Virus record (IMG/VR): IMGVR_UViG_3300031539_000039
Span: 1-55,005 of that record
DNA from: a virus
Taxonomy: Duplodnaviria; Caudoviricetes
DNA length: 55,005 nt
Direction: 5' to 3' (one strand)
Shown: piece after piece, positions 12 through 55,005 of the stretch
Layout: each line of letters starts with the position of its first letter
Numbering within the stretch: the first letter of the stretch is position 1
Program-made: the position numbers and the translations under genes
Notes under the pieces: model-generated
What the model was told of the DNA's origin: nothing
The model's input: only the letters and a program-made list of their open reading frames with translations
Databases searched by the model: none

Positions 12-137
12 CTGGTTTTATGGTTTGATGTACGAGAAGGCTCCAGATGCCTGCGAGATGTTACTGGAGGCGTTGAATATGCCGATGAAATGGTCACTGA
101 ACAATCTGATCATATACATAGAGCACCCACTATTCCG
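12..137. repeat. Terminal direct repeat (left copy), 126 bp; circular assembly overlap
   Basis: 12-137 is identical to 54880-55005, and an ORF reads through the junction. Confidence 0.95.
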
Positions 138-198
138 TGGAGCCGCTAACGGATACTGGTACCCGGAGAAGAGAGAGGTACACTGGAGGTCAGAGTAA
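13..198 (+). CDS. 3' part of DUF483-like Cys-rich protein that begins at 54251 and wraps the origin
   Basis: In-frame continuation WFYGLMYEKAPDACEML...REVHWRSE*; TAA at 196-198 overlaps the next ATG (TAATG). Confidence 0.85.
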   Translation, partial: WFYGLMYEKAPDACEMLLEALNMPMKWSLNNLIIYIEHPLFRGAANGYWYPEKREVHWRSE

Positions 199-665
199 TG
201 CTGCTCGATATACAGCTGAATCACTTTGGAAGAGGTTCGTGCACTATCAATCCCAGTCAACGACTCGTCAAAATAGGAATTGATCTGGCCTTGCAAGAGT
301 GGATATTAAAACACACAGGACTGATGTATCCGAATCCGAAAACCTATGCCTTTCCGTCCTATGCCTCATATATGGAATACAGCATAGCCCACGTTATTGC
401 GCACGAGGCTCTACATCAGGTTATCTACGATGAAGAAGGCTTTAGAGCCTGTAAAATGCTAGACAACGTTGACCAGTATGGAACCATGACGATGAGATAC
501 GGATATGAAGAGGACGTGTACTGGGGGATACAGTTTCGAAGAGTCCAATGGTGGAGGATATTCGACAATGATTTTGTGTTGAGGTATGACCTCCTGAAAA
601 AATTTGATGAGGCTCAAAGTAGATTGCAGGATAGGTTTGATAGGCAGGTGGAATTAGATAAATAA
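198..665 (+). CDS. HExxH-motif protein (zincin-like metallopeptidase or HExxH tailoring enzyme)
   Basis: IAHVIAHEALHQVI motif; translationally coupled to the upstream gene. Confidence 0.65.
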   Translation: MLLDIQLNHFGRGSCTINPSQRLVKIGIDLALQEWILKHTGLMYPNPKTYAFPSYASYMEYSIAHVIAHEALHQVIYDEEGFRACKMLDNVDQYGTMTMRYGYEEDVYWGIQFRRVQWWRIFDNDFVLRYDLLKKFDEAQSRLQDRFDRQVELDK

Positions 666-1362
666 CGCAGAGAAGAATCACATCCTTTTAGGTATGGACT
701 CCTGCCGATGGGATTCATTTACAATAGCAGATACACCGAACATAGACTCCCTAGGGAAGGCCATAAAGGTTCACTCGCCCGCAGGATGGACAGCGCCATC
801 AATGTTTCATCTGCTGACAAATGCACCATATTTCGGAAATCCTCGAACGAGATTCGTCCCTACCGAAAAAGGGGTCATCTGGGTTCCAAAGACTATGGCT
901 CAAAAGGGCTATCACAACGTCTTCTTTACCCCAAACCAAGTGATATACAAATACACTCATGCATTCCGACAGGGATTTCATGAAGTGGATTGGTACTGGG
1001 GAGAGTTCAAATATACGGCTAACCGTGACGTGGATAACGTAATTCGGGTCTTAAAAGAAGTAGAACAACCTAAATTCATACTAACCCTCTGTATGGCTAC
1101 ACACAAACCATTTGCATATAAAAAGGACCTTCCGAAAGAGTTTTTTGAGTCACCCACGCAAGGGATAGAATTTCAGGTTAGATCGATCGAGTCCTTAGAT
1201 AAGGAATTCGGTAGGGTACTGGATGTAGCCGAGAACGCCATCATAACCGTGTATTCAGATCATGGAACGTTGTTTAAAGAGTTAGAGGGCTATGACGGAC
1301 ATGGTCAGTGGCTGATGCATCCCAAACTGTTCGAGGTGCCGTTCATCCGTGGTAAAGTTTAG
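658..1362 (+). CDS. Alkaline phosphatase/sulfatase-superfamily protein (Thr-nucleophile type, possible phosphoryl/phosphoethanolamine transferase)
   Basis: NHILLGMDSCRWD metal-site strand, WTAPS, THKPF, SDHG..GH, VPFI. ORF track starts at ATG 694, but the first beta strand needs the ATA at 658 behind AGGTGG. Confidence 0.75.
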   Translation: MNNAEKNHILLGMDSCRWDSFTIADTPNIDSLGKAIKVHSPAGWTAPSMFHLLTNAPYFGNPRTRFVPTEKGVIWVPKTMAQKGYHNVFFTPNQVIYKYTHAFRQGFHEVDWYWGEFKYTANRDVDNVIRVLKEVEQPKFILTLCMATHKPFAYKKDLPKEFFESPTQGIEFQVRSIESLDKEFGRVLDVAENAIITVYSDHGTLFKELEGYDGHGQWLMHPKLFEVPFIRGKV

Positions 1363-2113
1363 CGGAGTATTCAGGTGTTATAAAAGACCTAACCTCACAG
1401 AGTTGTGCCTCCGAAGGATTATGGAGATGATGGAGCCGTATGACTTTGAACTCATTATGCTCTACGATGGTGACGACGAGAAATATATCAACCGTATGAA
1501 ACGGTTCTGTGATTTCAGTCACATAGTTTCAAATCCAAATAAGAAATATACGTTGGGGGAGCAGACAAACAAGGCAGTTGACTTATGTAGTGGTAGATAT
1601 TTCATGCACTTCGAAAACGACTACTATTGGGTTCATGGGTGTATGGAAGATGCGGTGGAGGCCATGAATTACGTGGATGTCGTTCGGTTGACGATGTTCC
1701 CCTTCAGCCGGAATAATTGTGAGAAGACCATGGGGAACATCGGGGTGTTTAAGGCAAATGTGGGTTACAGATTTAGTTTGAATCCACACCTTAGAAAAGA
1801 GAGATACCCTGTTGGTAGATTCTCACATACTGGAAGCTGGGTCGTCGAACCAGAGTATGTGGAGAGATTCAACAAGTCTGATAAGGTTGGAGGGTGTCTG
1901 TTGAAAAACAACTTTATCCATCTCGGCTTATATAATTCAAACGGACATTTCAGCCCAGGGCACACATCTTATTTCTTAGGATACAACTGGAGAAAACAAC
2001 AAGATGAACTTGATCCCGTCAGAACATTCACCTCTATCTGTGACAACGAAGAGTATATAGAATTATTCGGGGAATATTTACGTAGTAGTGGTGGAGAGAA
2101 ATGGTTGAACTAA
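1349..2113 (+). CDS. Glycosyltransferase, GT-A fold (GT2-like)
   Basis: CYKRPNLTELCL, LYDGDD, N.A....SGRYFMHFEND (DxD-like), FSLNPHLR, FIHLG. Confidence 0.75.
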   Translation: MVKFSGVFRCYKRPNLTELCLRRIMEMMEPYDFELIMLYDGDDEKYINRMKRFCDFSHIVSNPNKKYTLGEQTNKAVDLCSGRYFMHFENDYYWVHGCMEDAVEAMNYVDVVRLTMFPFSRNNCEKTMGNIGVFKANVGYRFSLNPHLRKERYPVGRFSHTGSWVVEPEYVERFNKSDKVGGCLLKNNFIHLGLYNSNGHFSPGHTSYFLGYNWRKQQDELDPVRTFTSICDNEEYIELFGEYLRSSGGEKWLN

Positions 2114-2865
2114 ACGGTAAGTTATTCGATGTAGAAAACATGACCACGCAACAGCGTGATAGAGGACTAGAGATAGTTCTGGAAAACTGTGGAGAACAAG
2201 CAGAGGTTGTCCTCTGTAGCCTCACAGGATCAAGAGCCTTCGGTTGGGGCGGGGACAGATACGATATGGACATCCATGGAGTGATCGCATCCCAAGGGCC
2301 TGGTTGGGACAATATGCATACCGGTAAGTTCGGTTACGACATCTCGATGTACAACTTCGACGTGTTCCTGATGGGTATGAGAGACCGGTGGATACTGTAC
2401 GAGAATTTATCAAATCCAATCTTCATTCACAAAGACTTCGACTTCAAAGGATTCCTATCCTTCTGCTGCCCGTTCCATGTCAAGCACCAGATGGGCACCA
2501 TAGAGATGGAGTTGCATACTTTGAGAAACAAGGAGACAATGCGAAAAGCCTTACACTGCTACCGACAGTTGGCCAATTCGCTGTGGTTCTTACAAACCGG
2601 TGAGGTACAGATTGATATAGGGAAAATTTATGAGAAATTCGAGATGGGTGAGTTTCCAAAGCTCTGTGAGTTTTACAAGGCGAGACAGTTAGGAGCTAAG
2701 TTAGACTGGCAGAAGATTTGGGCTGAACTGGGTGGATTGAAAGTTCAGATGGATCAACTGTTGGAAGAAAAACAAGACATATTTGATAAGGAGAGATTTG
2801 AGGAGTGGAAACAAGAAATGGTGGTGAAATTTATTGACTACAATATCAGGCGTCCTAACTTTTAG
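2101..2865 (+). CDS. Pol-beta superfamily nucleotidyltransferase (YcgL/RlaP-like) with helical C-terminal domain
   Basis: LTGSRAFG..DRYDMDIHGV signature (hG[GS]..DxD); KALHCYR..L..GE. Confidence 0.8.
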   Translation: MVELNGKLFDVENMTTQQRDRGLEIVLENCGEQAEVVLCSLTGSRAFGWGGDRYDMDIHGVIASQGPGWDNMHTGKFGYDISMYNFDVFLMGMRDRWILYENLSNPIFIHKDFDFKGFLSFCCPFHVKHQMGTIEMELHTLRNKETMRKALHCYRQLANSLWFLQTGEVQIDIGKIYEKFEMGEFPKLCEFYKARQLGAKLDWQKIWAELGGLKVQMDQLLEEKQDIFDKERFEEWKQEMVVKFIDYNIRRPNF

Positions 2866-3664
2866 GAACTGCATCAAGACAGGGTATCCATTCCTGGAGG
2901 CCATCCTATCTGTCCTACCGATAGTAGATGAGTATCGGATAAATGACGGCGGATCAATCGATGGCACTAAAGAGTGGCTACAAAAACTGAAGGATGTATT
3001 CCCAGATAAGATCATACTTTACGACATGCAAGACTACCCATCAGATAGATGGGAGTGTGTTAGTGAGCAATATAATAAAATGATCGAGGACTCAACTGGA
3101 GACTGGATGTTTCAAGGTGACGCGGATGAGGTAATCCATGAGCAAGACATCGGCGCCCTCAAGGCTGTAATCGAAAACATCTCTGATGATGTGGATGTAC
3201 TAAGGTTCCCAAGACGAGAAATTGGAGGATGGATGAGACTATCAGGTGCCGATAAACCATACCATCCATGTCGAGCGGTTAGAAACATTCCCGGGCTATA
3301 CCAAAAATGGGAGAGCCACGGCGGCGATGAGTTCTTAGACGAAGCCGGATGGATAAAAGAGCCGCGAAGACAGAAAAGCGATGTAATGATTTGGCATTTA
3401 TATACGGTTTTCCCGGGGAACAATATGGAGAAATGGAAAAATGACGCAACATACGTTGCAACCGGTGATGATCATAGAGTTAGGATATTCGAAGAACGTA
3501 AGAACAAGAGATGGTCTTCAGGTATAGATAGAGTCATCGTTAATCCAATTCCTAACTTACCGGCACTTGTGAAGGATATGGTGGGATGGGATAAATACAA
3601 GGTTAGAGGGACGCTTTTAGATATAGATTGGTTGAATTTTGTCACTGGTCTACGTTACGGTTAG
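2834..3664 (+). CDS. Glycosyltransferase, GT2-like
   Basis: ISGVLTFRN...YPFLEAILSVLPIVDE..INDGGSIDGT; GDWMFQGDADEVIHE. Confidence 0.85.
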   Translation: MTTISGVLTFRNCIKTGYPFLEAILSVLPIVDEYRINDGGSIDGTKEWLQKLKDVFPDKIILYDMQDYPSDRWECVSEQYNKMIEDSTGDWMFQGDADEVIHEQDIGALKAVIENISDDVDVLRFPRREIGGWMRLSGADKPYHPCRAVRNIPGLYQKWESHGGDEFLDEAGWIKEPRRQKSDVMIWHLYTVFPGNNMEKWKNDATYVATGDDHRVRIFEERKNKRWSSGIDRVIVNPIPNLPALVKDMVGWDKYKVRGTLLDIDWLNFVTGLRYG

Positions 3665-4821
3665 ACATCTGCATGTATAACAAAGGGTGGGCTGTTAGTA
3701 TGTGGGGTATCGCTGAAAGGTGTGTTGCTGTGAACGTTCATGAACGGGAAGTTAACATGACTCGGATTATCAGCAAACGGAATGTTTGAGTGGTCGCCAT
3801 GGGGCGGAAAGTTTACGTGCGATGGGTTATCGGCAAACGGAACGTTTGAGTGATCACCGTGAACTGGAAAGTTTATGTGGTTATCAGAGTAGAAGGGAGT
3901 ATTTGAGTGATCACTATGAGCTGGGAAATTTACATGGCTGTCAGGATATGCTGGGGTATTTGAATGGCTATCCCTGAACGAGGTATTACTGAAGGGGCTA
4001 TTTGAGTGGTCATTGTGAGCAGGAAAGTTTACGTGGCTATCACTATAGGTAGGAACGTTTGAGTGGTCACTATAGGCTGGAAAATTGACGTGACCAACAT
4101 CTGAGTGGTTAGAGTGTGCCTGATCAGTAAATTCATCACTATGTGACGTATCAACATACGAGTGGTCAGAATGGCCTTGATCAGAAAACGCATTACTGTG
4201 TGCTGTGTTACTAAACGGTCTATCTGAATGATCGTTACTATGTGCCGTATCAGTAAACGGATGGTTACTATGAACTTGGTCAGAATAGTCATTACTATGT
4301 ACTGTATCAGAGAAAGGATGGTTAGAGTGTACTTGGTCGATATATTCGTCACTATGGGGCGTATCTCCAAACGGTTGATTAGAGTGTACTTGGTCAGTAT
4401 ACTCATTACTGTGAGGATTATCTCCAAACGGTTGATTAGAGTGTACCTGAACTGGAACATTGCTATGAGGCAAATCTCCGAATGGACAGTCCTGATGCCC
4501 AGTTTCCCGTAGCAACCTGAAAGCCCTTGGCACTCCAGCCGTCGGCTGATAATCCCACGCACTGGCCGATGGATCCGCTCGGGGGACCGTATAAATGGAG
4601 TAAGTTGTTATATTCTTGTGAACACGGGGAACTCCACCAACTCCACCAACTTCCTCAGCTGGGAGGACTAAGCATATTTCACTATTCGCTGAGTTATAAT
4701 GATCGCAGTCACTATGGCAGACATCTTGGTGAGGTGGGCCAGCAACGTCAGCAAATGGAATGTTGGAATGCACTACATCACCGTGATGGTGAATAAACAG
4801 ACCGCGATACATAGTCGGCAT
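3661..4821 (-). CDS. His/Asp/Asn-rich repeat protein with ~64 aromatic-x-D/N triplets; last gene of tail operon; candidate rSAM substrate or fibre
   Basis: Repeats HSN, HSD, HVN, HGD, FGD, FSD, FAD, YSD, YTD; starts 12 nt after the tail hub gene; stop overlaps the stop of the convergent GT. Confidence 0.85.
   Translation of the reverse strand: MPTMYRGLFIHHHGDVVHSNIPFADVAGPPHQDVCHSDCDHYNSANSEICLVLPAEEVGGVGGVPRVHKNITTYSIYTVPRADPSASAWDYQPTAGVPRAFRLLRETGHQDCPFGDLPHSNVPVQVHSNQPFGDNPHSNEYTDQVHSNQPFGDTPHSDEYIDQVHSNHPFSDTVHSNDYSDQVHSNHPFTDTAHSNDHSDRPFSNTAHSNAFSDQGHSDHSYVDTSHSDEFTDQAHSNHSDVGHVNFPAYSDHSNVPTYSDSHVNFPAHNDHSNSPFSNTSFRDSHSNTPAYPDSHVNFPAHSDHSNTPFYSDNHINFPVHGDHSNVPFADNPSHVNFPPHGDHSNIPFADNPSHVNFPFMNVHSNTPFSDTPHTNSPPFVIHADV
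3670..4500 (-). repeat. Coding tandem repeats: ~19-aa units (PFxDxxHSNxYxDQVHSNx) followed by ~20-22-aa units (SHVNFPxHxDHSNxPFxD)
   Basis: 57-bp period visible in DNA, e.g. TATCTCCAAACGGTTGATTAGAGTGTAC at 4362 and 4419. Confidence 0.9.
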
Positions 4822-16351: not shown

Positions 16352-17236
16352 TTAGATGTGCATATACTCAGTATGATCCATATGCATTGATTCTAATCTC
16401 GGTTTACCCGTGAGCTCAGTTGCGGGAGCTGTGACGAACATAACCTTAAACTGTATTTCATGCTTACCGGCAAAGTCCGCCGCCGGGATAGTGAGGTTCC
16501 CTGTTGTATGGAATACGCTTCCAAGATCCGATGTATAGGTATCATCTATAGTCCTAGGGCTGTTTGCATGGCTTCCAGACAGTACATCTCCGTCAGTGAC
16601 TGCCAGGTACTCCACTTGGATTCTGATTTTCTTACCGTTATCATCTAATCCCGTGTCATTCGTCCAGTGGAATAATAATACTATATCAGTGCCAGGCACA
16701 TAATGTGGCGAAACTTCCCATTTATAGTGAACAATATCGGTATCAACGTCGAACTCCAGCATTAGGGTATTATCTACGGTTACAACATCCGGTGGGTTAG
16801 TATTGGGTCTTCCAAACTTCTCCGCTGGAATATGATCCCCGTGTGGTCTGGTATCATCTATTTGCTTAATCCACATGGGAACGAGAAGCATGTAGGTTGA
16901 GCCATGAGCGACACCGACAGCTTGAGAATATCCAGATGTAGTGGGCGGAGTCTGCGTGAGGCCTCCGGGGGTCGATGATGCATAGATGGGGCCGTCAACC
17001 CACGCCCAGTCTAGGTTGCTTACTAGACCGTATAGCAGGATTCTGCCTTTGTAGTTGATCGGTAGATCGCTGAGCACCATCCCATACCCAGGCATTGTCA
17101 GCTCTGCGTCCCTGTCCGCCTTGTACCATTTACCTCCCTTGATGTAGACCAGGTTGTAGTTGTCCAGGGCTTCCCCTGCCACGCCCTCAACTATGAGTCC
17201 GTCCCCTTCCCGATGCGGTTTAATCACATAAGGCAT
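16352..17236 (-). CDS. Head decoration/fibre protein (cement-like N-domain plus jelly-roll-like C-domain); paralog of 18072-18566
   Basis: MPYVIKP.REGDGLI.EG.AG..L..Y.LV....GKW.KADR shared N-terminus. Confidence 0.65.
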   Translation of the reverse strand: MPYVIKPHREGDGLIVEGVAGEALDNYNLVYIKGGKWYKADRDAELTMPGYGMVLSDLPINYKGRILLYGLVSNLDWAWVDGPIYASSTPGGLTQTPPTTSGYSQAVGVAHGSTYMLLVPMWIKQIDDTRPHGDHIPAEKFGRPNTNPPDVVTVDNTLMLEFDVDTDIVHYKWEVSPHYVPGTDIVLLFHWTNDTGLDDNGKKIRIQVEYLAVTDGDVLSGSHANSPRTIDDTYTSDLGSVFHTTGNLTIPAADFAGKHEIQFKVMFVTAPATELTGKPRLESMHMDHTEYMHI

Positions 17237-21325: not shown

Positions 21326-22204
21326 TCAGCTCAGCCCCTCAATGGTTGTGATCCATTCCTCCGCTCTCTTCTTCCAAGTCCAGTTCTTAAGCACAAGTTC
21401 CCTGCTTCTCTCCCCCATTTCACGCTTTTTATCTGGGTTCTCCTTCAGGTAGATAAGCGCGTCAACAAACTCCTTCTTGGTGTTGCAGATGAATCCATTG
21501 CCATCTATCAGTCCCTCCCTGACATATCCTACATCCGTTGAGATGATGGGTAAGCCGCAAGCTGCGGCTTCAAGAAGCGTCAGCGGTCCCCCGGCCGATG
21601 AGAATGTACATAGAAAAACGTGTAGTTGGTTGTATCGTCTCGGCATCTTCTCACGCGGAACCCTGAATTTACCTCTCGTATCTATAAGATAACTTGTAAC
21701 TTGTGCGTTCGCGCAGATGGGGTTGAACCAATTATCTATCCTCTCCGCCCTACTCTTCCAGTTGTCCTGGTTTCCGCCTCTCCCGGTGATTCCGGCGAAG
21801 TGTCTCTTCTTAACATTCAGGGGTCGGAACATCTTTGTGTCTACGCCCGTGGGTCTGACGAAGAAGGTCGTGTACCGGAGCTTGTCGCGGATCAGGGAGC
21901 TGGACTGGGCGAAGATGTATTTGAAGATGCTCCAATCCTTTATCCTGCCGTAGGTCTTCATCCCTCCCAGCCAGGCGATGAATTTGGGGCGGATCTCCTT
22001 CTTGAAGAGCGTGGTTTCGTAGGTGTCCTGCCCGAGTAGTGGGCTGATTATCCAGTCGTATTCCCTGAGGTTCTTCGTGATCTTCTGGGTGTTGATCAGG
22101 TCGAAGGTGTAGCTGGGTCTGTCCACCCACCTCTTGAAGTCCTCCATGATGAAGTTGAAAGCCCACCGCTGGCTCCCTTCAGGGCATAGGAGGGCGATTC
22201 TCAT
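21326..22204 (-). CDS. Glycosyltransferase GT4
   Basis: PTGVDT..F.P; GGPLTLLEAAACGLPIISTDVG. Confidence 0.9.
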   Translation of the reverse strand: MRIALLCPEGSQRWAFNFIMEDFKRWVDRPSYTFDLINTQKITKNLREYDWIISPLLGQDTYETTLFKKEIRPKFIAWLGGMKTYGRIKDWSIFKYIFAQSSSLIRDKLRYTTFFVRPTGVDTKMFRPLNVKKRHFAGITGRGGNQDNWKSRAERIDNWFNPICANAQVTSYLIDTRGKFRVPREKMPRRYNQLHVFLCTFSSAGGPLTLLEAAACGLPIISTDVGYVREGLIDGNGFICNTKKEFVDALIYLKENPDKKREMGERSRELVLKNWTWKKRAEEWITTIEGLS

Positions 22205-24116: not shown

Positions 24117-24946
24117 ATCATCACACCCCAGTCGCACGCATTCCGCCTGATTGAATACTCGCTTTTCTTGATCAGTCGGTTTATCTCGTATTGACGTTGC
24201 ACGATCTCCATCCCAATCGACTGGTGTAGCCTCATCGGAGGATGCCACTGATGGTAGAACCGCATGTTAGGATCATAGTTTTCCTCTATTTCGTAGCTCT
24301 CTATTTCACGGTCTATCTCAGCTCGTCTACGCAAGTCGCCGTCCTCATGGCCATACATCTTCATCCTCTCGTCGAAACCCCTCACCTTCATCCACCAGCT
24401 TTGTGGTGCGCTCATGAAGCCTCCGACGCTTCTTTTGATATACCTCGGATTGCCGGCTCTTAGCTTCTCATAGTCTCTAGGCAGATCCATGTTTTCAACC
24501 TCAACAGTCTCGTCTAAAAGGTAGGGTGCCATCATGATCAGCCGAGGCCTCTCTATGTGAATGTTGAGGGCGCATTTAAGAACCGAAGGCATCAACACGC
24601 AGTCTGCGTCCAGTGTCGCAACGTATTCGCCTCTCGCCCTCCTCAGCCCAATGTTCCGCGAGAGTGACATGCTCCACGCGTCCATGGTTGGGAAGCGGAG
24701 CACGGTGCAGTCGAACGGCTCAAGCGTCGCCATCAACCGCCTGTGGTTCTCAGGGGTGGAGCCGTAGTCGACTACGATTACCTCAAGGCTTCCCACGGTT
24801 TGAAGCTGAAGGCTCCTCAGGCAGTTCCTCACCCTCGCGCCATAAAGGTTCCCCACGGGTACGATGATGGAGTAGATGGGCGCCTCTATCTCCTGAACAC
24901 GAACTATCTCAACATACGGGGGCCCGGACTGCCTGCGGCTCTTCAT
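24113..24946 (-). CDS. Glycosyltransferase GT2 (galactosyltransferase-like C-terminus)
   Basis: SIIVP, VIVVDYGS, SRNIG..ARGEY...LDAD, GFDE...YGHED.DL, HQWH. Confidence 0.9.
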   Translation of the reverse strand: MKSRRQSGPPYVEIVRVQEIEAPIYSIIVPVGNLYGARVRNCLRSLQLQTVGSLEVIVVDYGSTPENHRRLMATLEPFDCTVLRFPTMDAWSMSLSRNIGLRRARGEYVATLDADCVLMPSVLKCALNIHIERPRLIMMAPYLLDETVEVENMDLPRDYEKLRAGNPRYIKRSVGGFMSAPQSWWMKVRGFDERMKMYGHEDGDLRRRAEIDREIESYEIEENYDPNMRFYHQWHPPMRLHQSIGMEIVQRQYEINRLIKKSEYSIRRNACDWGVMI

Positions 24947-26418
24947 CGGGGGAGCACCCTGCGAACAGGTTTATCCCATAGCTTTGGCTGAGCTGGTTCG
25001 AATCCCCACTTCTTTTTGAAACGATCCTTAGAAGCTTCATTTCGTTTAATGTCTCGACGCAGCAGATTATACTCAGCGCTGTCATAACAGGGTATAATTC
25101 CTTTAGAGGTGACTAGATATTTATGATGGGCCACGGCGTCTCCGCAGACAGCCATCCGAAGCCCCGCCTTCCTTATCTCTTGGCTCCAGTCCCAGTCATT
25201 CCATCCAAAGTCGTATTCTGTATCGTAAGGAATAAGCGGGTCTAGTTTGAAGGCTGTGAAGCCAGAGGATACAAACTGCACCTCCGCGGTTTGCTTCACC
25301 AAGGGAAGAACGTGGTGCTGTGTTTCACCCTCTTCGTGGGTTATGTAGCCGCCTAACATTCGATTCATGCCTTTCTGGATGACGCCGCCTGCTATGGCGT
25401 GGTATTGTGGGTTTTCCGCTAACGCTCTGATGAGGGCTTCAATGCTTCCTGGGTGTGGTAAGATGTCATCATCGAGGGTTAACATGTATCTGTACCCTTC
25501 CTTTCCGAAAGCCTCCATCGCCTCTGTTCTGATCTCTGAGAGTTTTCGTGGCTCTGGGTTGTCAATGACGTCTACAGCCCATCTACCTCGCCAACACTTC
25601 AGAGCCTCCATCTGCTTGGGACTCCTGTCGCCTTGGTTGACTAGGCGAACCTTCAGGGGCATCCTGGTCCTGAAGATTGCTCTCATAACTTGGTCGATAT
25701 AGTAGGGTCGTTCCAGCGTCGCAACTAGGACCCCTACCTCTGGGTTATACGGGGTCACTCTATGGAGATTGTCCTTGTAATCCATCCGTTTCTTCGCCCA
25801 TAAATCCATGTTTCTCTGCTGGTTCGGGTGGACTCTCAGGTGGTGTTGATGACTGCCCTTCAGACCAGGCTCGTATCGAAGCCTTATGCCGCTATGGTAA
25901 CACCTCGCACCAAAGTCGTGATCCTCGGCACCCCAGCCAGAGTCGTATTCCGTGTCGAATAAACCCACGAGCTTTGCTCTGCTCCTTGAGAACAGCATAC
26001 ATCCATCCAAGGCCTTCCAGGCGCCCATGTAAGAATCATCCAGCCACCTGGAGCCCTCACCTGGTGTTGCTTGGTTCCCTGTAAACAGGACACTTGGATC
26101 AAAAACTCTGCGTGCATTCTCTAGGAAGTGTGGGTTCGGGATACAATCGGGGGCAAGGATGGTCACAGCGTCGTTCTTAGCGGATCTTATACCAAGGTTG
26201 CGTAGAGTGTTCAGCCTGTGAATGCGTTGGTCAAGTTTCGGTGGCCTCACAATAGTTAACGCCTGGCAGCCGCATATGCCTATGCCTGAGGGAGAGTGGT
26301 CGTCGACGACGATCACCTCATCGTCGGGGTTCAGCTGAAGTTTGAGTTCATTGAACGTCTTTTTGAATGCCCTCTTCTTCTCATAGAACGGGATCACTAT
26401 GCTTATGCCTATTGCCAT
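24943..26418 (-). CDS. Two-domain GT2 glycosyltransferase
   Basis: ISIVIP..VVDDHS..LRNLG..FDTEY..WGAED; second domain LTLDDD..DWDW. Confidence 0.9.
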   Translation of the reverse strand: MAIGISIVIPFYEKKRAFKKTFNELKLQLNPDDEVIVVDDHSPSGIGICGCQALTIVRPPKLDQRIHRLNTLRNLGIRSAKNDAVTILAPDCIPNPHFLENARRVFDPSVLFTGNQATPGEGSRWLDDSYMGAWKALDGCMLFSRSRAKLVGLFDTEYDSGWGAEDHDFGARCYHSGIRLRYEPGLKGSHQHHLRVHPNQQRNMDLWAKKRMDYKDNLHRVTPYNPEVGVLVATLERPYYIDQVMRAIFRTRMPLKVRLVNQGDRSPKQMEALKCWRGRWAVDVIDNPEPRKLSEIRTEAMEAFGKEGYRYMLTLDDDILPHPGSIEALIRALAENPQYHAIAGGVIQKGMNRMLGGYITHEEGETQHHVLPLVKQTAEVQFVSSGFTAFKLDPLIPYDTEYDFGWNDWDWSQEIRKAGLRMAVCGDAVAHHKYLVTSKGIIPCYDSAEYNLLRRDIKRNEASKDRFKKKWGFEPAQPKLWDKPVRRVLPR

Positions 26419-35709: not shown

Positions 35710-36963
35710 TTATATCTTCTCCGCAGTCTCTCCCGTGTAGGCTTTGAAGCGGTCTAGGATGATCTGGCAGTAACGGGGGTCGAGTTCTATCATGTAGCCT
35801 TGGCGGTCTAGTTGCTCGCACGCGATGAGAGTGCTGCCGCTTCCGGCGAAGGGGTCCAGGACAATCTCCCCGGGGAGGCTGCTGTTCCCTATGGCGCGTG
35901 AACAGAGTTCCACAGGTTTCATGGTGGGGTGGAGCTTGCTCTGCTGGGGTTTGGGGATGTCCCAGACGGTGCGCTCGTTCTTCCCATAGAACTTGTGTTT
36001 GCCCATCCAGCAGTAGACGATGAGTTCATGTTTGCCCATGTAGTCCGTTCTGCCTATGACGGAGTTGTTTTTATTCCAGACGAGGACTTGGCTTAGGTAA
36101 TAGTTGTTCAGGTCCAGGGCTATGAGTAGTTCTTTGATTGTTTTTCCGGCTATTGTTATGTATATGGTGTTGTATTCTGTGAGACTGTTTTTCATAGCTT
36201 CGAGCCAGTCATGTAGGAATGCGGTGTAGTCCAGTATGGCGTCGTTTATTATCGCGGTTTGGATACGATTGCCTTTGTCAAATTTGTTTAGGAACTCGTT
36301 TTTACTGGCGTAGTCTACGTTGTAGGGCGGGTCGGTCATGACCATGTGGGCCTGCTTGCCATCGAGTATCTTGATGAAGGTTTCCTCTTTGGTGCTGTCC
36401 CCGCATAGTATCCTGTGGGGGCCCACCTTGTAGAGGTCTCCGAACTCTATGTCGGTGACCACTTCCTCTAGGGGCGGTATCCTGTATGTGTCCTCTTTGA
36501 TCTTACCCTCGAGAGCGTCCTTGATTGCCTTCTCGCCGATCTGCAGGATGCTGATAAGCTCCTTGCGTCTGCCGCCCTCTATGAGGCGCCGGTACTCGAG
36601 GAGATCCTTATCTGGGTCGTGTATGCCTCGGAGCTTGTTCGTGATCTGCCTGAGTAACCGCCTGTCCACATCGTCGACGTCGAGGCGTAGGACGGGACCA
36701 TAGTATTCCTTGTGGGCGAGGCATGTCTCTAGGCGCTGTTCGCCGTCTCCGAGCATGCCTTTCTTGTCGACTAGGATGGGGTAGACCCAGCCATATTTCT
36801 GCATGCTTCTCCAGAGACCCTCTCTGACGCGCTTGGTCATGCGATTAGGATTGTCAGAATCCTTGGTGAGTTCGCGGAGATCCTCGATGAGGGGCTTGTA
36901 CTCCTCTGGGATGTGTATCTGGGTTTTCATGTTGTTCCCTTCTTTACTAACAGGCAGGTGCAT
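35710..36963 (-). CDS. ParB-like N-domain plus N6A/N4C DNA methyltransferase
   Basis: NPN.M....L..S...YG...PILVD....GDGEQR; HRILCGDS, TDPPYN, HPTMKP, LDPFAGSGST; likely start ATG 36930. Confidence 0.9.
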   Translation of the reverse strand: MHLPVSKEGNNMKTQIHIPEEYKPLIEDLRELTKDSDNPNRMTKRVREGLWRSMQKYGWVYPILVDKKGMLGDGEQRLETCLAHKEYYGPVLRLDVDDVDRRLLRQITNKLRGIHDPDKDLLEYRRLIEGGRRKELISILQIGEKAIKDALEGKIKEDTYRIPPLEEVVTDIEFGDLYKVGPHRILCGDSTKEETFIKILDGKQAHMVMTDPPYNVDYASKNEFLNKFDKGNRIQTAIINDAILDYTAFLHDWLEAMKNSLTEYNTIYITIAGKTIKELLIALDLNNYYLSQVLVWNKNNSVIGRTDYMGKHELIVYCWMGKHKFYGKNERTVWDIPKPQQSKLHPTMKPVELCSRAIGNSSLPGEIVLDPFAGSGSTLIACEQLDRQGYMIELDPRYCQIILDRFKAYTGETAEKI

Positions 36964-37740: not shown

Positions 37741-39300
37741 TTAAGGGTCTTTGAATTGGGTTAGTGGGGTGACGCCTTCGGGTCGGGGCTTGTATCTGCC
37801 ACGGATGCGTTTCTCCGCCATCTCGGCGTACTCCGGGTTTATCTCGATGCCTATGAATCTGCGACCAAGTCGGCGGGCTACTCTTAGAGCTGTGCCTGAC
37901 CCTGCGAAGGGGTCCAGAACCACGCCTCCGACCCAGTCGGCTCCGCATCCACAGTCAGACCAACCAGCCGTTTCTCTTTCATTCACATATTCAACGCCTT
38001 GTTCTCTTGCTGCTTGTCTTAATAATGCGAGGCGGTTAGCACTGGTTCCTTTCAGATATTTGCTCTCAGTTTCACCAGTGTGAAGAGTGAATTTGGGTTC
38101 AGTTATTCTTGTTCGTGGTTTTCCGCATCGGCTGCATATCCACCGGGGGCACCCTGCCTTCACGATGGGCTTGATTAATTTGGGTGGGAAGGTGGCGAAG
38201 TGGGCTCCAGGGAAGGGCGTTGTAGGGATACGCCAGAGGTCTCCGGGGTTCTTACCTTTAGGATGATAGAAGTTCTCATCATGATGGTGCTCCACCAGAT
38301 ATGGATAGTTTTCATCGGATTTTCTTCGTCGTTGTGTTCTGGCTCTTGGCGAGCCATACTTCTCTGATTCTTCACCAATACCGTCGAATTTACCTTGATA
38401 TTTCTCAGCTAATGATTTAACCATGTCAGCACTTCGTGAGCCCCTGTCTTTGGGTGATTTCTTCTTACCCCTTAACGCAATCTGTTTTTCTCCACCTTGT
38501 TGATTCATCACGTTAGGTTGAGTGACACGCTGAATTGTAGAAGCTGAATGAGGCTTCCTTATTGCGTCGAGGTCGAAGTAGTAGCGCCGTGCCTTGGCGA
38601 AGAGGAACACATGCTCGTAGGCACAGGTGAGTCGGTCTTTGACGCTGCTGGGCATGTGATTGGGTTTGTGCCAGATTATGTCGTTGCGGAGTATCCAGCC
38701 GTCGTGCTGGAGGGCGATGGCGACTCGTGCGGGGATCATGAGAAGTTGCTTAGGCTGAAGCCAGCCACCATCTGATTTTAACATTCTATTGGGATTCTGT
38801 TCTCTCGTAAGTTCCTTGAAGGCGTCTTGTGGGAGAGAGGTTGCGCCTCCACCTGGGTTGTAGCATTTTCCTTTCATTGAAGCGTATGAGTCGCCTAGGT
38901 TGATCCAGAACGTGCCCGACGGCTTCAGCACTCGTTTGATTTCAAGGCATATCTCGGCGAGGTGGTCGATGAATAATTGGGGGTGGGGTTCGAGGCCTAG
39001 GCTGCCACGCCAAGCCCCACATTCAGAGCAGAAATCGCTTTTCTGATCTTCTCCTCTTAAAGTCCCTAAGTTTGTGGATTGCTTCCCTTCCCCGCCCTGC
39101 TTATTGAATGAAGCCGTTTCCTCAGCCCACTCGTGTTCGCATTCGGGGTCGCCGCCCCACATCTTTATAGTTTCAGATCCATAGTCTCTGAGGCCCCAAT
39201 AAGGTGGGCTAGTCACCACGAGGTCGATGCTGTCCTCTGGCCACCCAGCCATGACCTCAGTGCAGTCGCCGACTATAACTTGGTTTAGGGGTAGACTCAT
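37741..39300 (-). CDS. N4C/N6A DNA methyltransferase with Zn-finger inserts
   Basis: VTSPPYWGLRDY, IIWHKPN, HFATFP, VLDPFAGSGT, IGIEIN. Confidence 0.92.
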   Translation of the reverse strand: MSLPLNQVIVGDCTEVMAGWPEDSIDLVVTSPPYWGLRDYGSETIKMWGGDPECEHEWAEETASFNKQGGEGKQSTNLGTLRGEDQKSDFCSECGAWRGSLGLEPHPQLFIDHLAEICLEIKRVLKPSGTFWINLGDSYASMKGKCYNPGGGATSLPQDAFKELTREQNPNRMLKSDGGWLQPKQLLMIPARVAIALQHDGWILRNDIIWHKPNHMPSSVKDRLTCAYEHVFLFAKARRYYFDLDAIRKPHSASTIQRVTQPNVMNQQGGEKQIALRGKKKSPKDRGSRSADMVKSLAEKYQGKFDGIGEESEKYGSPRARTQRRRKSDENYPYLVEHHHDENFYHPKGKNPGDLWRIPTTPFPGAHFATFPPKLIKPIVKAGCPRWICSRCGKPRTRITEPKFTLHTGETESKYLKGTSANRLALLRQAAREQGVEYVNERETAGWSDCGCGADWVGGVVLDPFAGSGTALRVARRLGRRFIGIEINPEYAEMAEKRIRGRYKPRPEGVTPLTQFKDP

Positions 39301-52967: not shown

Positions 52968-54254
52968 ATGACAATCCTCATCATACCAACAGAGCACTGT
53001 CAATTCCGGTGTACCTATTGCTTCGAACCAGACTCGTTGAGGCACAAAGAAGAATATCTTGAACCAGATATTACCGCTGTTCAGCGATCTTTAGACAAAC
53101 TATGGGGAGATTCCTATCAGGGCAGTGATATTGGCATACATGGCGGTGAATGTACGACGTTACGCCCACGGGAGTTAGAGCCCTACCTGAAAATGATTTT
53201 CGACAAAATCGGGCACACAGGTATTACTACGAATGGCTATAACATTGATGATGGTTACATTCAATTATTTAAGAAATACAAAACATATGTTGGGATAAGT
53301 TGTGACGGCCCTGAAGCATTGAATACTTTACGTGGTCCGAATCCACAAGATGCAAATGGAACCAAAGGATATAATCGTAAGTTGAAAAAGATTCTTCGAA
53401 AGTTACGGAAGGCTAGAATCGATGTCAGCATGATGTGTATCCTACATACTGAGAATGCTGGGAATGAAGATAAACTAGATCAACTGAAAGAATGGGTGGT
53501 ATGGCTCTCCGATATGGGCATCACCGGCGGACGATTTAACCCACTATATGCTATGCCCTGGCAGTCGAAGTATCAACTAGATAACGATCAACTGTTAACT
53601 GCTTGGAAGGAATTAACCAACTTAACTTTTGACTACAGCCTTCGATGGAACCCAATCAGAGAGATGGAAGACAGCCTACTAGGATTCTCGGTCTCACCAT
53701 GCACATTCGGTCAATGTGACAATTTCCAGACCAGTACTATCAGCATTCTGCCTGACGGTACAATTAGCAATTGTGATCGTACATTTGAATATGGATTACA
53801 TTTGCGAAGTGAAACTGATTTATGTAGCGGTAGGTACCAGGCGCTGATAACAGATCAATGTAAAGACTGTAAGTATTGGAACTTGTGCAATGGTGGATGC
53901 CCAAGTGAAGGTGTCGATGGAGACTGGCGGAACAAGAGCAGATTCTGCGAAGCATACTACGGCTTATATGAGTACGTTGGACAAAAAATAAAGGGATTGT
54001 TTCCAAACGTTATGCTAGTTACCGAGAGCACTGAGCGAGAGCCATTCAAGTTGATGTCCTACCGTTACTCATCGAAGCCGTCGGTTTATGGAGCTGCGCC
54101 ATTAGTTGAAAATTGTCCACCGACCCCATCAACTCAACAGGTAGGGTATCGTCCCCATGGAGACCACTATGATGAGACGCAACGGATACTACAACCTGAG
54201 CAGCGCATTAATCGCCCGCACGGAGATCACTATGACGAGGCGTTACGAAGATGA
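52968..54254 (+). CDS. Radical SAM/SPASM peptide/protein maturase
   Basis: CQFRCTYC, HGGE, TTNG, GISCDGP; SPASM C....C...DGTISNC and CKDC..WNLCNGGCP...FC; C-tail RPHGDHYDE x2. Confidence 0.93.
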   Translation: MTILIIPTEHCQFRCTYCFEPDSLRHKEEYLEPDITAVQRSLDKLWGDSYQGSDIGIHGGECTTLRPRELEPYLKMIFDKIGHTGITTNGYNIDDGYIQLFKKYKTYVGISCDGPEALNTLRGPNPQDANGTKGYNRKLKKILRKLRKARIDVSMMCILHTENAGNEDKLDQLKEWVVWLSDMGITGGRFNPLYAMPWQSKYQLDNDQLLTAWKELTNLTFDYSLRWNPIREMEDSLLGFSVSPCTFGQCDNFQTSTISILPDGTISNCDRTFEYGLHLRSETDLCSGRYQALITDQCKDCKYWNLCNGGCPSEGVDGDWRNKSRFCEAYYGLYEYVGQKIKGLFPNVMLVTESTEREPFKLMSYRYSSKPSVYGAAPLVENCPPTPSTQQVGYRPHGDHYDETQRILQPEQRINRPHGDHYDEALRR

Positions 54255-55005
54255 GTAAACCCGACCTGTTCCCATTTACAGTGTTATCATGGAACAGTGC
54301 TAAGATAAAGAGGAAATGGGAGCCTATACAAAGAGAAATTCAAAATGCCGTAGCGTTTGCTGAATATGAAGGAGTAAAAAGAGGCCACCGACGCTGTGAC
54401 GTGTACCAACTTGATCCACACAGCTTCGATCACCAGATTGAGAAGGTTTTCATGGATGGATTATCCTACCTACCGATACTGCGATCACAACTATACCCTG
54501 GTTTTGGGCATCGGCACTATCTCGTAGAGGAATTGAAACAAGATACGTTTGTTTACGGGGTTGTTGGAAAGACATTGGAGGATGCTAAACTATTCAAAAA
54601 AGCCAGTGTTGGTGATGTAGATCACAACCAGATAGGAGAACTGCTAGGCTATCCAAAATGCTGTCGTGACTGGTTTTTAGAGGTTTGGTTGAAAGAAGGA
54701 AGCTGTGACCCGATGTATGAAACAGCATTGAATACGTCGAACCATGAAGTTAATGACGATGGATCTGTCACCGTCGGTGGTAATCCAAAATACAACAGGT
54801 TGATAAGGTACTTCGGGCTTCAGGCGATTCCATACTTCACCTGCAGTTATGAGTGTAAAGAATCTGAGAAGTTCATTGACTGGTTTTATGGTTTGATGTA
54901 CGAGAAGGCTCCAGATGCCTGCGAGATGTTACTGGAGGCGTTGAATATGCCGATGAAATGGTCACTGAACAATCTGATCATATACATAGAGCACCCACTA
55001 TTCCG
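54251..55005 (+). CDS. DUF483-like Cys-rich protein (continues at 138-198 across the circular junction)
   Basis: My translation: MSKPDLFPF...IGELLGYPKCCRDWF...IPYFTCSYECKES...; ATGA overlap with rSAM; missing from ORF track because it has no stop before the window end. Confidence 0.8.
   Translation, partial: MSKPDLFPFTVLSWNSAKIKRKWEPIQREIQNAVAFAEYEGVKRGHRRCDVYQLDPHSFDHQIEKVFMDGLSYLPILRSQLYPGFGHRHYLVEELKQDTFVYGVVGKTLEDAKLFKKASVGDVDHNQIGELLGYPKCCRDWFLEVWLKEGSCDPMYETALNTSNHEVNDDGSVTVGGNPKYNRLIRYFGLQAIPYFTCSYECKESEKFIDWFYGLMYEKAPDACEMLLEALNMPMKWSLNNLIIYIEHPLF
54880..55005. repeat. Terminal direct repeat (right copy)
   Basis: Identical to 12-137. Confidence 0.95.

What the first reader, a model, noticed from the sequence alone, without database searches (positions are those of the whole stretch)
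54150..54239. The rSAM enzyme carries the substrate motif in its own C-terminal tail
Seen: after the SPASM domain, a low-complexity tail contains RPHGDHYDE twice (54150-54176 and 54213-54239). The DNA differs only at synonymous positions, suggesting selection on the peptide. It matches PHGDHSN/VHGDHSN units of the repeat protein and gives two back-to-back H-x-D triplets. Inference: self-modification, autoinhibitory substrate mimic or fused mini-precursor. This is the strongest internal link between enzyme and repeat protein.
Basis: partly seen in the sequence, partly recalled or inferred. Interest (0 to 1): 0.8.

Follow-up and report, generated by a model that had tools for sequence, protein, structure and literature searches.

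The report
Substrate-like His-Gly-Asp tail on phage enzyme
A virus-encoded radical-SAM enzyme ends in a floppy tail of His-Gly-Asp units that echo the repeats of a neighbouring fibre-like protein it probably modifies, and this tail recurs in hundreds of related, so far unexplained, viral enzymes.

Summary
RPHGDHYDE occurs twice in the C-terminal tail of the rSAM/SPASM ORF (52968-54254). The two DNA copies differ at 5 of 27 bases, all synonymous third positions.

The tail is a family hallmark. 56 of 69 sequence-search rows, 76 of 110 standard-architecture representatives and 125 of 171 dereplicated members carry H-x-D/N units after the SPASM domain, mostly HGDxx pentads.

In 48 of 57 related viral loci a protein with tens of (His/Tyr/Phe/Trp)-x-(Asp/Asn) units, most often 5 residues apart, lies beside the rSAM gene. 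A DUF483 gene lies beside it in 49 of 57. Thermus phages Cumys and phiLo carry the tail on an rSAM-DUF483 pair, and Cumys also has the repeat protein. The window's ends overlap, so the cassette is contiguous here too.

Best reading (about 0.45): the tail is a stereotyped, substrate-like segment engaged by the enzyme's own active site as self- or pseudo-substrate. By analogy with triceptide synthases the chemistry would be His-to-Asp cross-linking.

Nothing shows binding or modification. AF2 leaves the tail disordered, and whole clades keep the cassette without a tail. Rivals are metal binding and partner docking.

The parts
52968..54254 (+). rSAM/SPASM protein maturase, 428 aa, with no N-terminal RRE-type domain (the cluster motif starts at residue 11)
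   Evidence: AF2 model pLDDT 85.8. Nearest structures are anSMEcpe 4K37 and the triceptide synthase ChlB 9GM3.
52998..53021 (+). CxxxCxxC radical-SAM cluster motif (C11, C15, C18)
   Evidence: Translation. These Cys are 90% or more conserved in A1 and invariant in A2.
53700..53948 (+). SPASM region with eight invariant Cys (C245, C250, G264, C269, C298, C301, C307, C311, C327)
   Evidence: Invariant columns of A1. TIGR04085 matches residues 252-327 above its cutoff.
54000..54128 (+). Clade-conserved linker (PNxxL..EPFKxMSYxYSxKPSxYG), residues 345-387, modelled packed on the core
   Evidence: pLDDT falls from 88 (residues 341-350) through about 80 to 58 across this stretch. Consensus from A1 and A2.
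54129..54251 (+). Disordered His/Asp tail, residues 388-428
   Evidence: pLDDT below 50. H418, G419 and D420 are 90% or more conserved in A1. Tails of homologues are listed.
54150..54176 (+). Unit 1: RPHGDHYDE (two back-to-back H-x-D triplets)
54213..54239 (+). Unit 2: RPHGDHYDE, with 5 synonymous differences from unit 1
54251..55005 (+). DUF483-family gene whose start overlaps the rSAM stop (ATGA). It runs off the record end and continues at 138-198, giving 271 aa in all.
   Evidence: Junction reading. A homologue lies beside the rSAM in 49 of 57 viral loci and in 33 of 49 genome loci, 9 of those as rSAM-DUF483 fusions.
12..137 (.). Copy of window 54880-55005 (126 of 126 nt identical): the record's ends overlap, so the genome is circular or terminally redundant
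138..198 (+). 3' end of the DUF483 gene, read across the junction
198..3664 (+). Rest of the + strand operon: unknown 198-665, sulfatase-fold protein 694-1362 (no CxPxR), GT2 1349-2113, unknown 2101-2865, GT2 2834-3664
   Evidence: The 2834-3664 GT2 has a homologue in 10 loci, downstream of the rSAM-DUF483 pair. The 2101-2865 protein has a homologue between the repeat protein and the rSAM in L019.
3661..4821 (-). Aromatic-x-Asp/Asn repeat protein (P0001, 386 aa), the last gene of the - strand tail module. It converges on the + operon and is the probable substrate.
   Evidence: BLAST relatives lie close upstream of the rSAM in 9 loci. Repeat-type ORFs are present in 48 of 57 loci. The tail-module context comes from PHROGs.

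Best explanation
The feature is the C-terminal, intrinsically disordered 'HGD tail' of a virus-encoded SPASM radical-SAM protein maturase. The enzyme belongs to a conserved cassette with three core parts. One is a large protein built of (His/Tyr/Phe/Trp)-x-(Asp/Asn) units, most often 5 residues apart. The others are the rSAM itself and a DUF483 protein, with an optional methyltransferase domain or glycosyltransferases. The repeat protein is the probable substrate. The tail repeats the same unit at the same 5-residue period in a stereotyped form (Pro-His-Gly-Asp, often doubled as HGDHxD). I read it as a built-in substrate-like segment that the active site of the same or a sister enzyme molecule engages. 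It would either be modified itself (self-substrate, as in fused borosins) or act as a placeholder that the real substrate displaces (pseudo-substrate). By analogy with triceptide synthases that join His C2 to the C-beta of the third residue of H-x-x motifs, the likely chemistry on both the repeat protein and the tail is a His-to-Asp/Asn cyclophane cross-link. Shown: the tail's existence, purifying selection, family-wide conservation, shared motif and period, and tight synteny with the repeat proteins and DUF483. Inferred: that the repeat protein is the substrate, the type of chemistry, and any contact between the tail and the active site.
For: (1) Purifying selection on the peptide: 5 of 5 differences between the two units are synonymous.
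(2) Conservation. 56 of 69 rows have at least one HGD after the SPASM motif, with 264 HGD in tails against 3 in enzyme bodies. 76 of 110 standard-architecture proteins among the best 150 of 848 representatives (E <= 1e-30) have at least 2 H-x-D/N units in the tail. 125 of 171 dereplicated members carry a tail. Thermus phage Cumys ends ...HGDYTDHGDAPHGDHWDG, and phiLo has HGDHYD...HGDHNDHGDHTD.
(3) Same unit and period as the neighbour: a spacing of 5 dominates in both tails and repeat proteins, and Pro at -1 is 34% in tails against 18% in repeat proteins.
(4) Synteny. Repeat-type ORFs occur in 48 of 57 viral loci, mostly directly upstream of the rSAM. They make up 66 of 566 same-strand ORFs within 5 kb of the rSAM against 0 of 211 farther away. 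In the window only 1 of 128 frames is of this type.
(5) The His position of the repeat proteins is often Tyr, Phe or Trp: 539 such units against 1855 His units. That fits an aromatic-x-x cyclophane motif better than metal ligation.
(6) Enzyme kinship. The top NCBIfam hits are cyclophane-forming maturases (AmcB 3.5e-20, YhhB, GrrM/OscB, XyeB, FxsB), DynA and anSME. The nearest structures are anSME and the triceptide synthase ChlB.
(7) His-C2-to-C-beta cross-links on HAA, HNR and HTK motifs are documented for HaaB, YhhB and HtkB (PMC11499958, part 1 of 3 of the text read).
(8) There is a continuum from 1-2 units to C-terminal extensions with 17-25 units (P0198, P0156, P0169). Some enzymes therefore carry a whole repeat domain.
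(9) X2 usage of a tail overlaps its cognate repeat protein slightly more than non-cognate ones: 0.264 against 0.207 +/- 0.019, with 6 of 5000 permutations reaching the observed value. This test is not corrected for relatedness.
Against: AF2 had the tail in cis and left residues 388-428 at pLDDT 33-40, with no confident docking. The tail differs from the substrate. X2 is Gly in 440 of 688 units, X3 is Asp in 655 of 688, and only 33 aromatic-for-His units accompany 688 His units (ratio 0.048 against 0.29 in repeat proteins). Selection is therefore for His-Gly-Asp specifically, which also suits metal binding. Whole clades keep the repeat protein, rSAM and DUF483 without any tail, and no small stand-alone HGD ORF replaces it in the 6 tail-less loci examined. 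The trait changed state at least 18 times on a 171-tip FastTree. No function is evident for a modified enzyme tail. No mass, activity or structure data exist.
Confidence: 0.45

Rival explanations
1. Metal-binding tail. The His/Asp-rich HGD pentads chelate Fe(II), Zn(II) or Ni(II). They might feed or protect the three Fe-S clusters, or bridge by metal to the His/Asp repeats of the fibre protein.
For: Tails are almost purely His-based (688 His units against 33 aromatic) and 95% Asp at X3. The tail repeat region is 18% Asp, 16% Gly and 15.5% His. H-x-D is a classical metal-ligand pair: every paper found for 'His-Xaa-Asp' concerns 2OG oxygenases or metallo-beta-lactamases (search listing). His-rich storage tails on Ni chaperones are recalled from general knowledge.
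Against: The unit, its period and the Pro at -1 are those of the adjacent repeat proteins, where His is freely replaced by Phe, Trp or Tyr. There is no Cys in the tail. Tail-less relatives carry the same eight SPASM Cys. No rSAM enzyme with such a metal tail is known to me (recalled, not searched).
Confidence: 0.2
2. Docking element. The substrate-like tail binds a partner that recognises H-x-D units, either the DUF483 protein or the assembling repeat protein. This tethers the enzyme non-covalently, and other lineages achieve the same by fusing rSAM and DUF483.
For: rSAM and DUF483 genes are adjacent in 49 of 57 viral loci and 33 of 49 genome loci, and they are fused in 9 of the latter. The tail sits exactly at the junction, and the two genes overlap (ATGA). 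The enzyme has no RRE-like domain. HxsC needs the small partner HxsD in the HXS system (PMC13128918, section 9).
Against: The fusion linkers contain no H-x-D units. Clades with neither tail nor fusion exist.
Confidence: 0.2
3. Functionless low-complexity spill-over: repeat units copied from the neighbouring gene by recombination or slippage and merely tolerated.
For: The tail is labile (at least 18 state changes), variable in copy number from 1 to 25, disordered and absent from functional-looking cassettes.
Against: All 5 differences between the window's units are synonymous. The HGD(H)xD core persists down to 27-30% identity. Tail composition is distinct from, and more stereotyped than, the neighbour's repeats. 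State changes are far fewer than random: 18 against a shuffled mean of 40.8 and a minimum of 35.
Confidence: 0.07
4. Ordinary anaerobic sulfatase-maturing enzyme serving the sulfatase-fold gene at 694-1362, with the tail irrelevant.
For: anSME is the best full-length structural and profile match (4k36 1.2e-33; 4K37 TM 0.61/0.70). A Pfam Sulfatase protein is in the same operon.
Against: TIGR03942 scores 64 bits against a cutoff of 349. The sulfatase-fold protein has no C/S-x-P-x-R motif. It has no homologue in any of the 57 related loci, whereas the repeat protein and DUF483 are conserved.
Confidence: 0.03

Closest known systems
Triceptide (three-residue cyclophane) synthases: HaaB, YhhB, HtkB, ChlB, XyeB, GrrM/OscB, AmcB
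   Same: They are rSAM/SPASM enzymes. Their substrates carry repeated aromatic-x-x motifs in which His, Tyr, Phe and Trp interchange, and His-C2-to-C-beta links are documented (PMC11499958). These families give the top NCBIfam hits. ChlB is among the nearest structures.
   Different: All family scores are far below cutoff (AmcB 72 against 425). There is no RRE or leader-binding domain. The substrates are proteins of 170-1100 aa with up to 112 units rather than short leader-core peptides. The system is virus-borne, has a DUF483 partner, and carries the motif on the enzyme itself.
HXS anti-phage system (HxsA His-Xaa-Ser repeat effector matured by rSAM HxsB/HxsC with HxsD)
   Same: An rSAM enzyme matures a repeat protein rather than a small peptide, with His-x-small-residue repeats, and the rSAM works with a small partner protein (PMC13128918, abstract and section 9).
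   Different: HxsB scores 30 bits against a cutoff of 370. The repeats here are acidic H-x-D/N and number tens to more than 100 rather than 5 basic ones. There is one rSAM plus DUF483. The cassette is encoded by the virus next to tail genes, not by the host as a defence. No enzyme tail came up in what I read (abstract and section 9).
Borosins of the fused type (OphMA-like self-methylating precursor-enzymes)
   Same: The substrate segment sits at the C-terminus of its own modifying enzyme. The architecture is recalled from general knowledge; only search listings were seen.
   Different: The chemistry is SAM methyl transfer rather than radical SAM. In borosins the fused core is the product. Here a separate large substrate gene is nearly always present, in 32 of the 33 tail-bearing loci.
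Anaerobic sulfatase-maturing enzyme (anSME)
   Same: It gives the best full-length fold and profile match. It lacks an RRE, has two auxiliary clusters, and acts on a short motif within a protein (motif recognition is recalled).
   Different: The equivalog cutoff is not met and there is no CxPxR target in the cassette.
'rSAM module' of Thermus phages Cumys and phiMa (bioRxiv 10.1101/2024.08.14.607894)
   Same: It is the same cassette: rSAM, DUF483 and a third unknown protein. The paper also notes fusions of DUF483 with methyltransferase or rSAM domains (passages read). Cumys_13, Cumys_12 and Cumys_11 were read here.
   Different: The paper proposes DNA modification. Its main text has 0 occurrences of 'histidine', none of its four uses of 'repeats' concerns these proteins, and the seven rSAM passages shown do not mention the enzyme's tail.

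Membership tests
Radical SAM / SPASM maturases | CxxxCxxC cluster motif and a Radical_SAM domain | tested here: met
   C11, C15, C18. PF04055 2.5e-15, 57.5 bits against a cutoff of 29.5.
Radical SAM / SPASM maturases | C-terminal SPASM Cys motif for auxiliary 4Fe-4S clusters | tested here: met
   TIGR04085 30.9 bits against a cutoff of 27. C245, C250, G264, C269, C298, C301, C307, C311 and C327 are invariant in 35 sequences. The motif spacing definition is recalled.
Triceptide synthases (3-CyFE) | Membership of a curated cyclophane-maturase family (AmcB, YhhB, GrrM/OscB, XyeB, FxsB) | tested here: not met
   The best is AmcB at 72.3 bits against a cutoff of 425. All the others are also below their cutoffs.
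Triceptide synthases (3-CyFE) | Cognate substrate with aromatic-X-X motifs encoded next to the enzyme | tested here: met
   Repeat-type ORFs occur in 48 of 57 loci, with H/Y/F/W-x-D/N units most often 5 residues apart.
Triceptide synthases (3-CyFE) | Aromatic-ring-to-C-beta cross-link (-2 Da per motif) | not testable with these tools
   Needs mass spectrometry or NMR of co-expressed proteins.
Triceptide synthases (3-CyFE) | Leader peptide or RRE-type recognition | tested here: inconclusive
   The enzyme starts at the cluster motif with no N-terminal domain. Many repeat proteins have a three-unit GSxWxEG..L.YID N-domain of unknown role. ChlB also matches over the full length.
Anaerobic sulfatase-maturing enzyme | Equivalog score (TIGR03942) | tested here: not met
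   64.4 bits against a cutoff of 349.45.
Anaerobic sulfatase-maturing enzyme | Partner sulfatase with a C/S-x-P-x-R target | tested here: not met
   The 694-1362 product has no such motif and is not conserved with the enzyme, with homologues in 0 of 57 loci.
HXS system (HxsA/B/C/D) | HxsB or HxsC equivalog | tested here: not met
   TIGR03978 30.4 bits against a cutoff of 370.
HXS system (HxsA/B/C/D) | His-Xaa-Ser repeats in the effector | tested here: not met
   The units are H-x-D/N: 41 of 46 His in P0001, and D 74% with N 26% at X3 in the neighbouring repeat proteins of the 38 dereplicated pairs.
Fused enzyme-substrate RiPPs (borosin type) | Substrate motif at the enzyme's own C-terminus | tested here: met
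   This is a resemblance by sequence pattern only.
Fused enzyme-substrate RiPPs (borosin type) | Self-modification of that segment, and its release as a product | not testable with these tools
   AF2 gives no confident placement of the tail. No protease is identified in the cassette.
DUF483 (PF04467), for the downstream gene | Pfam gathering score | tested here: inconclusive
   The window copy scores 19.3 bits against a cutoff of 25. Homologue L046 scores 31.7, above the cutoff, and L011 scores 22.9. The atlas neighbours carry PF04467 on 16-40% of their members.

The most novel reading that the evidence does not exclude
The enzyme is autocatalytic on its own tail. It would be the first radical-SAM counterpart of the fused borosins, installing His-Asp cyclophane staples on its HGD units. 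It would do so within a widespread viral system that staples a tail-fibre-like protein at tens to more than 100 aromatic-x-Asp/Asn sites. That would be enzymatic cross-linking of a virion protein, found from Thermus phages to viruses of archaea.
Probability: 0.25. Interest if true: 0.85.

Novelty: new variant of a known kind. Interest (0 to 1): 0.68.

Why it matters
Radical-SAM/SPASM maturases are known for short leader-core peptides, and since 2026 for one host defence protein, HxsA. Here a large family sits in tailed viruses and prophages of bacteria and archaea, next to tail genes. The family has 848 representative clusters at E <= 1e-30. It appears to act on whole proteins made of aromatic-x-Asp/Asn pentads, and it repeatedly carries a stereotyped copy of that motif on the enzyme itself. 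If the tail is a self- or pseudo-substrate, it gives a new way for a leader-independent rSAM enzyme to be regulated or primed. It also gives a minimal, built-in model substrate for working out the chemistry. If the repeat proteins are cross-linked virion fibres, this is a new kind of virion protein chemistry. Cultured Thermus phages (Cumys, phiMa, phiLo) carry the rSAM, and the tail and DUF483 partner were read in Cumys and phiLo. The published guess of DNA modification can therefore be tested directly against protein modification.

Tried and rejected
- **Complex prediction.** Core 1-387 plus tail 388-428 plus SAM plus three 4Fe-4S clusters gave no verdict. The median score was 0.31 against a mark of 0.32, the three runs scored 0.02, 0.55 and 0.31, and one control scored 0.25. 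I do not use it either way.
- **The search for related loci.** The single protein found no viral relatives; alignment A1 worked.
- **DUF483 fold.** The AF2 model is good (pLDDT 92). Foldseek against the PDB found nothing at E <= 0.001; the best was 2guk, a protein of unknown function, at 0.12. The wide VIA search gave 2guk at Z 7.6 and NleE at Z 5.3, over residues about 37-164 only. That is too weak to name a fold or function.
- **PADLOC.** Only weak viperin hits for the rSAM and nothing for DUF483 or the repeat proteins.
- **PHROGs and Pfam.** Nothing for the repeat proteins, except Laminin_G_3 in the L058 one.
- **anSME-for-the-sulfatase idea.** Rejected.
- **Split-precursor idea.** I looked for a small stand-alone HGD ORF in 6 tail-less loci and found none.
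- **rSAM-DUF483 fusion linkers.** No H-x-D units.
- **Literature.** Searches for triceptide + phage, rSAM + SPASM + phage + fused precursor, rSAM + tail fiber, DUF483 + radical SAM, and HxD-repeat terms found no description of this tail or of H-x-D repeat proteins. Supplements of the Thermus phage paper could not be seen.
Full report
**1. The observation**

The ORF 52968..54254 (+) encodes a 428-aa protein that ends ...VGYRPHGDHYDETQRILQPEQRINRPHGDHYDEALRR. The nonapeptide RPHGDHYDE occurs at 54150-54176 and 54213-54239. The two DNA copies differ at 5 of 27 positions, all synonymous third positions. Five random substitutions would all be synonymous with P of about 1e-4, or 1.6e-3 for transitions only. 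The spacer between the copies is not repeated. In a 90%-identical homologue (P0002) the spacer differs while both units are kept.

The protein is an rSAM/SPASM enzyme.

**2. The tail is a family feature**

A sequence search gave 68 relatives. Counting the query, 56 of 69 rows have at least one HGD after the last SPASM Cys motif, 50 have at least two, and 26 have at least five. There are 264 HGD in tails against 3 in the enzyme bodies. The 13 rows without HGD form a few groups with other tails, plus one distant non-member, P0069.

A profile search of 1.84 billion representatives found 848 proteins at E <= 1e-30. Of the best 150, 110 have the standard architecture by my regex. Of those, 76 have at least two H-x-D/N units in the tail and 61 have at least one HGD. 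Some carry 17-25 units.

I pooled 269 sequences. I kept the 200 with a 55-200 residue C-terminal region, leaving out truncated and fused forms, and dereplicated them to 171. Of these, 125 have a tail. On a FastTree of the core domain the trait changes state at least 18 times, against a mean of 40.8 (minimum 35) in 200 label shuffles. The trait is therefore inherited in clades but also labile.

The most persistent element is a terminal doubled unit, PHGDHxD/N, within a few residues of the C-terminus. Distant viral clades have PHADHTD or HLD-type variants.

**3. The surroundings**

The window is a complete IMG/VR record of a tailed virus, with terminase, portal and tail proteins on the - strand. 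Its last 126 nt are identical to positions 12-137. The genome is therefore circular or terminally redundant, and the gene downstream of the rSAM reads across the junction to give 271 aa.

The map is thus contiguous. On the + strand the order is:
- rSAM;
- the DUF483-family gene, whose start overlaps the rSAM stop;
- an unknown gene;
- a sulfatase-fold protein;
- a GT2;
- an unknown gene;
- a second GT2.

This + strand operon converges on the repeat-protein gene, which closes the - strand tail module.

**4. Related loci**

57 viral loci were fetched with alignment A1. A homologue of the DUF483 gene lies beside the rSAM in 49 of 57. BLAST relatives of the window's repeat protein lie close upstream of the rSAM in 9 loci. 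A homologue of the second GT2 lies downstream of the rSAM-DUF483 pair in 10 loci.

I then used a composition criterion: at least 6 H-x-D/N units at a density of at least 0.025. By this criterion 48 of 57 loci hold one or more repeat-type ORFs. Most of the 9 loci without one have the rSAM close to a contig end. Such ORFs make up 66 of 566 same-strand ORFs of at least 100 aa within 5 kb of the rSAM, and 0 of 211 farther away. In the window only 1 of 128 frames qualifies.

The repeat proteins range from about 170 to 1100 aa and hold up to 112 H-x-D/N units. The units are most often 5 residues apart (785 spacings), with spacings of 7 (374) and 3 (310) also common. His is often replaced by Tyr, Phe or Trp: 539 aromatic against 1855 His units in 60 proteins. 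Many of the proteins start with three GSxWxEG..L.YID units. One has a Laminin_G_3 lectin domain.

In 49 genome loci from bacteria and archaea, DUF483 is linked to the rSAM in 33, and in 9 of those the two are fused. Repeat-type ORFs are present in 15. Long DUF483 forms carry a class I methyltransferase domain.

**5. Cultured phages**

Thermus phages Cumys, phiMa and phiLo encode the enzyme at 27-30% identity. In Cumys the gene order is baseplate genes, tail collar fibre, Cumys_14, Cumys_13, Cumys_12 (rSAM), Cumys_11 (DUF483). Cumys_13 has the three GSxW units followed by 54 H-x-D/N units. Cumys_12 ends ...PEHGDYTDHGDAPHGDHWDG. The phiLo enzyme has HGDHYD...HGDHNDHGDHTD.

The paper describing Cumys noted an 'rSAM module' of rSAM, DUF483 and a third unknown protein, and suggested DNA modification. 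Its main text has no occurrence of 'histidine' (passages read).

**6. What the enzyme resembles**

The AF2 model is confident for residues 1-344 (whole-model mean pLDDT 85.8, pTM 0.83). Confidence falls from 88 to 58 across the clade-conserved linker 345-387. It is below 50 for residues 388-428.

The closest solved structures are anSMEcpe (Foldseek 1.7e-15, TM 0.61/0.70; profile 1.2e-33 over the full length) and the triceptide synthase ChlB (1.2e-13, TM 0.62/0.71). SuiB, SkfB and CteB follow. NCBIfam ranks the cyclophane-forming AmcB first, then DynA, anSME and others, all far below their cutoffs. There is no N-terminal recognition domain.

The sulfatase-fold neighbour has no C/S-x-P-x-R motif and has no homologue in any of the 57 related viral loci. 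An anSME role is therefore unlikely.

Triceptide synthases link the ring of an aromatic residue to the C-beta of the third residue. His-based HAA, HNR and HTK motifs are documented (PMC11499958, part 1 read). An aromatic-x-Asp/Asn unit with interchangeable His, Tyr, Phe and Trp fits that pattern. This supports 'works like a triceptide synthase on a protein-sized, leaderless substrate'. It does not support membership of any curated family.

The HXS defence system is the nearest case of an rSAM-matured His-repeat protein (PMC13128918, abstract and section 9). It differs in enzymes, repeat type, copy number and owner.

**7. What the tail does**

The tail shares the unit, the 5-residue period and the preceding Pro with the repeat proteins. 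It is, however, a stereotyped version. X2 is Gly in 440 of 688 units, against 10% Gly and 53% Ser/Thr in the repeat proteins. X3 is Asp in 655 of 688 units. Aromatic replacements are rare, at a ratio of 0.048 against 0.29.

The X2 usage of a tail overlaps its own neighbour's slightly more than that of others: 0.264 against 0.207 +/- 0.019, with 6 of 5000 permutations reaching the observed value. Related loci were not corrected for, so this is only suggestive.

A separate repeat protein accompanies 32 of the 33 tail-bearing viral loci. The exception has the rSAM at the contig start. The tail is therefore an addition to the substrate, not a replacement for it. Sixteen loci with a repeat protein have a tail with fewer than two units, and I found no stand-alone small HGD ORF in the 6 such loci I examined. 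The core reaction therefore does not need the tail.

My ranking is:
- substrate-like segment engaged by the active site, as self- or pseudo-substrate: about 0.45;
- metal binding: about 0.2;
- docking to DUF483 or to the repeat protein: about 0.2;
- no function: about 0.07;
- anSME with an irrelevant tail: about 0.03.

A leaderless enzyme that recognises a short motif, with 40 or more disordered residues carrying that motif on its own chain, would be expected to meet it. Whether it then turns the tail over is open. The His-Gly-Asp stereotypy is the main argument for the metal rival.

**8. Limits**

No binding, mass or activity evidence exists. The only co-folding job gave no verdict (see Tried and rejected). 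ORFs in the loci were called mechanically, and antisense shadows of the repeats were seen; they do not change the per-locus presence counts. Tail counts rest on regex definitions stated with each call.

**9. Verdict**

The tail is a conserved hallmark of a large, mostly viral rSAM family. The enzyme's link to the repeat protein is established by synteny across very distant viruses. The mechanistic reading as a self- or pseudo-substrate is plausible but unproven. The finding is a new variant of known kinds (rSAM repeat-protein maturation and enzyme-substrate fusion), and it can be tested directly in cultured Thermus phages.

Noticed in passing
window 12-137 and 54880-55005: The record's two ends share an identical 126-nt stretch. 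The first 11 nt of the record do not match the corresponding bases before the end copy. IMG/VR classes the record as 'linear', but it looks circular or terminally redundant, and one gene reads across the junction.
   Followed up: yes
window 198-3664 (+): The operon after the rSAM-DUF483 pair holds two GT2 glycosyltransferases, a short sulfatase-fold protein without CxPxR, and two unknown genes. Repeat proteins have Ser/Thr at X2 in 53% of units while the enzyme tail has Gly, so glycosylation of the repeat protein but not of the tail is conceivable.
   Followed up: partly
window 16352-17236 (-), residues about 128-134: A 294-aa protein of the virion module contains a single TRPHGDHIP, the same RPHGDH hexapeptide as the tail units. 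PHROGs gives only an unknown-function family (1.1e-6). It could be chance or an extra target site.
   Followed up: partly
window 21326-22204 (-) and 24943-26418 (-): There are further glycosyltransferase-like genes inside the structural module (PHROGs 1.6e-8 and 1.4e-10). That is an unusually large number of glycosyltransferases for a 55-kb virus.
   Followed up: no
window 35710-36963 (-) and 37741-39300 (-): Two DNA methyltransferase genes sit next to the terminase, one with a ParB-like N-terminal part (PHROGs 1.5e-94 and 4.9e-65).
   Followed up: no
L002, L012, L024, L043, L059 (Cumys_13) and others, N-termini of the repeat proteins: Many repeat proteins begin with three copies of a roughly 35-residue unit, GS(I/V)W(V/I)EG..L.YID..G..R, which has no Pfam or PHROGs match. 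It could be a recognition domain for the rSAM or DUF483, or a virion attachment domain. The window's own repeat protein lacks it.
   Followed up: partly
L045, L047, L051, L052, L054 (viral loci): Up to five tandem paralogous repeat-protein genes (HTD/HTN/HSN/FSN units) precede one rSAM whose tail has a single PHADHTD unit.
   Followed up: partly
P0112, P0136, P0181, P0185, P0187, P0193 (representative proteins): These proteins of 680-780 aa have a CxxxCxxC motif near the N-terminus and the family match in the second half. This suggests tandem double-rSAM fusions.
   Followed up: no
P0134, P0152, L005, L017, L067 (tails): A variant tail uses a roughly 9-residue unit, HxDG(I/V)xHxDG, as in IEHLDGxIRHLDSN, instead of HGDxx pentads.
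   Followed up: no
L061, L062, L081 (genome loci): The closest cellular-genome relatives of the window enzyme (37-40% identity) are in a Polyangiaceae MAG and two Bathyarchaeota MAGs. Both Bathyarchaeota loci have an adjacent DUF483 gene, and one (L062) has an Asn-rich tail instead of HGD. The host of the window's virus was not resolved.
   Followed up: no
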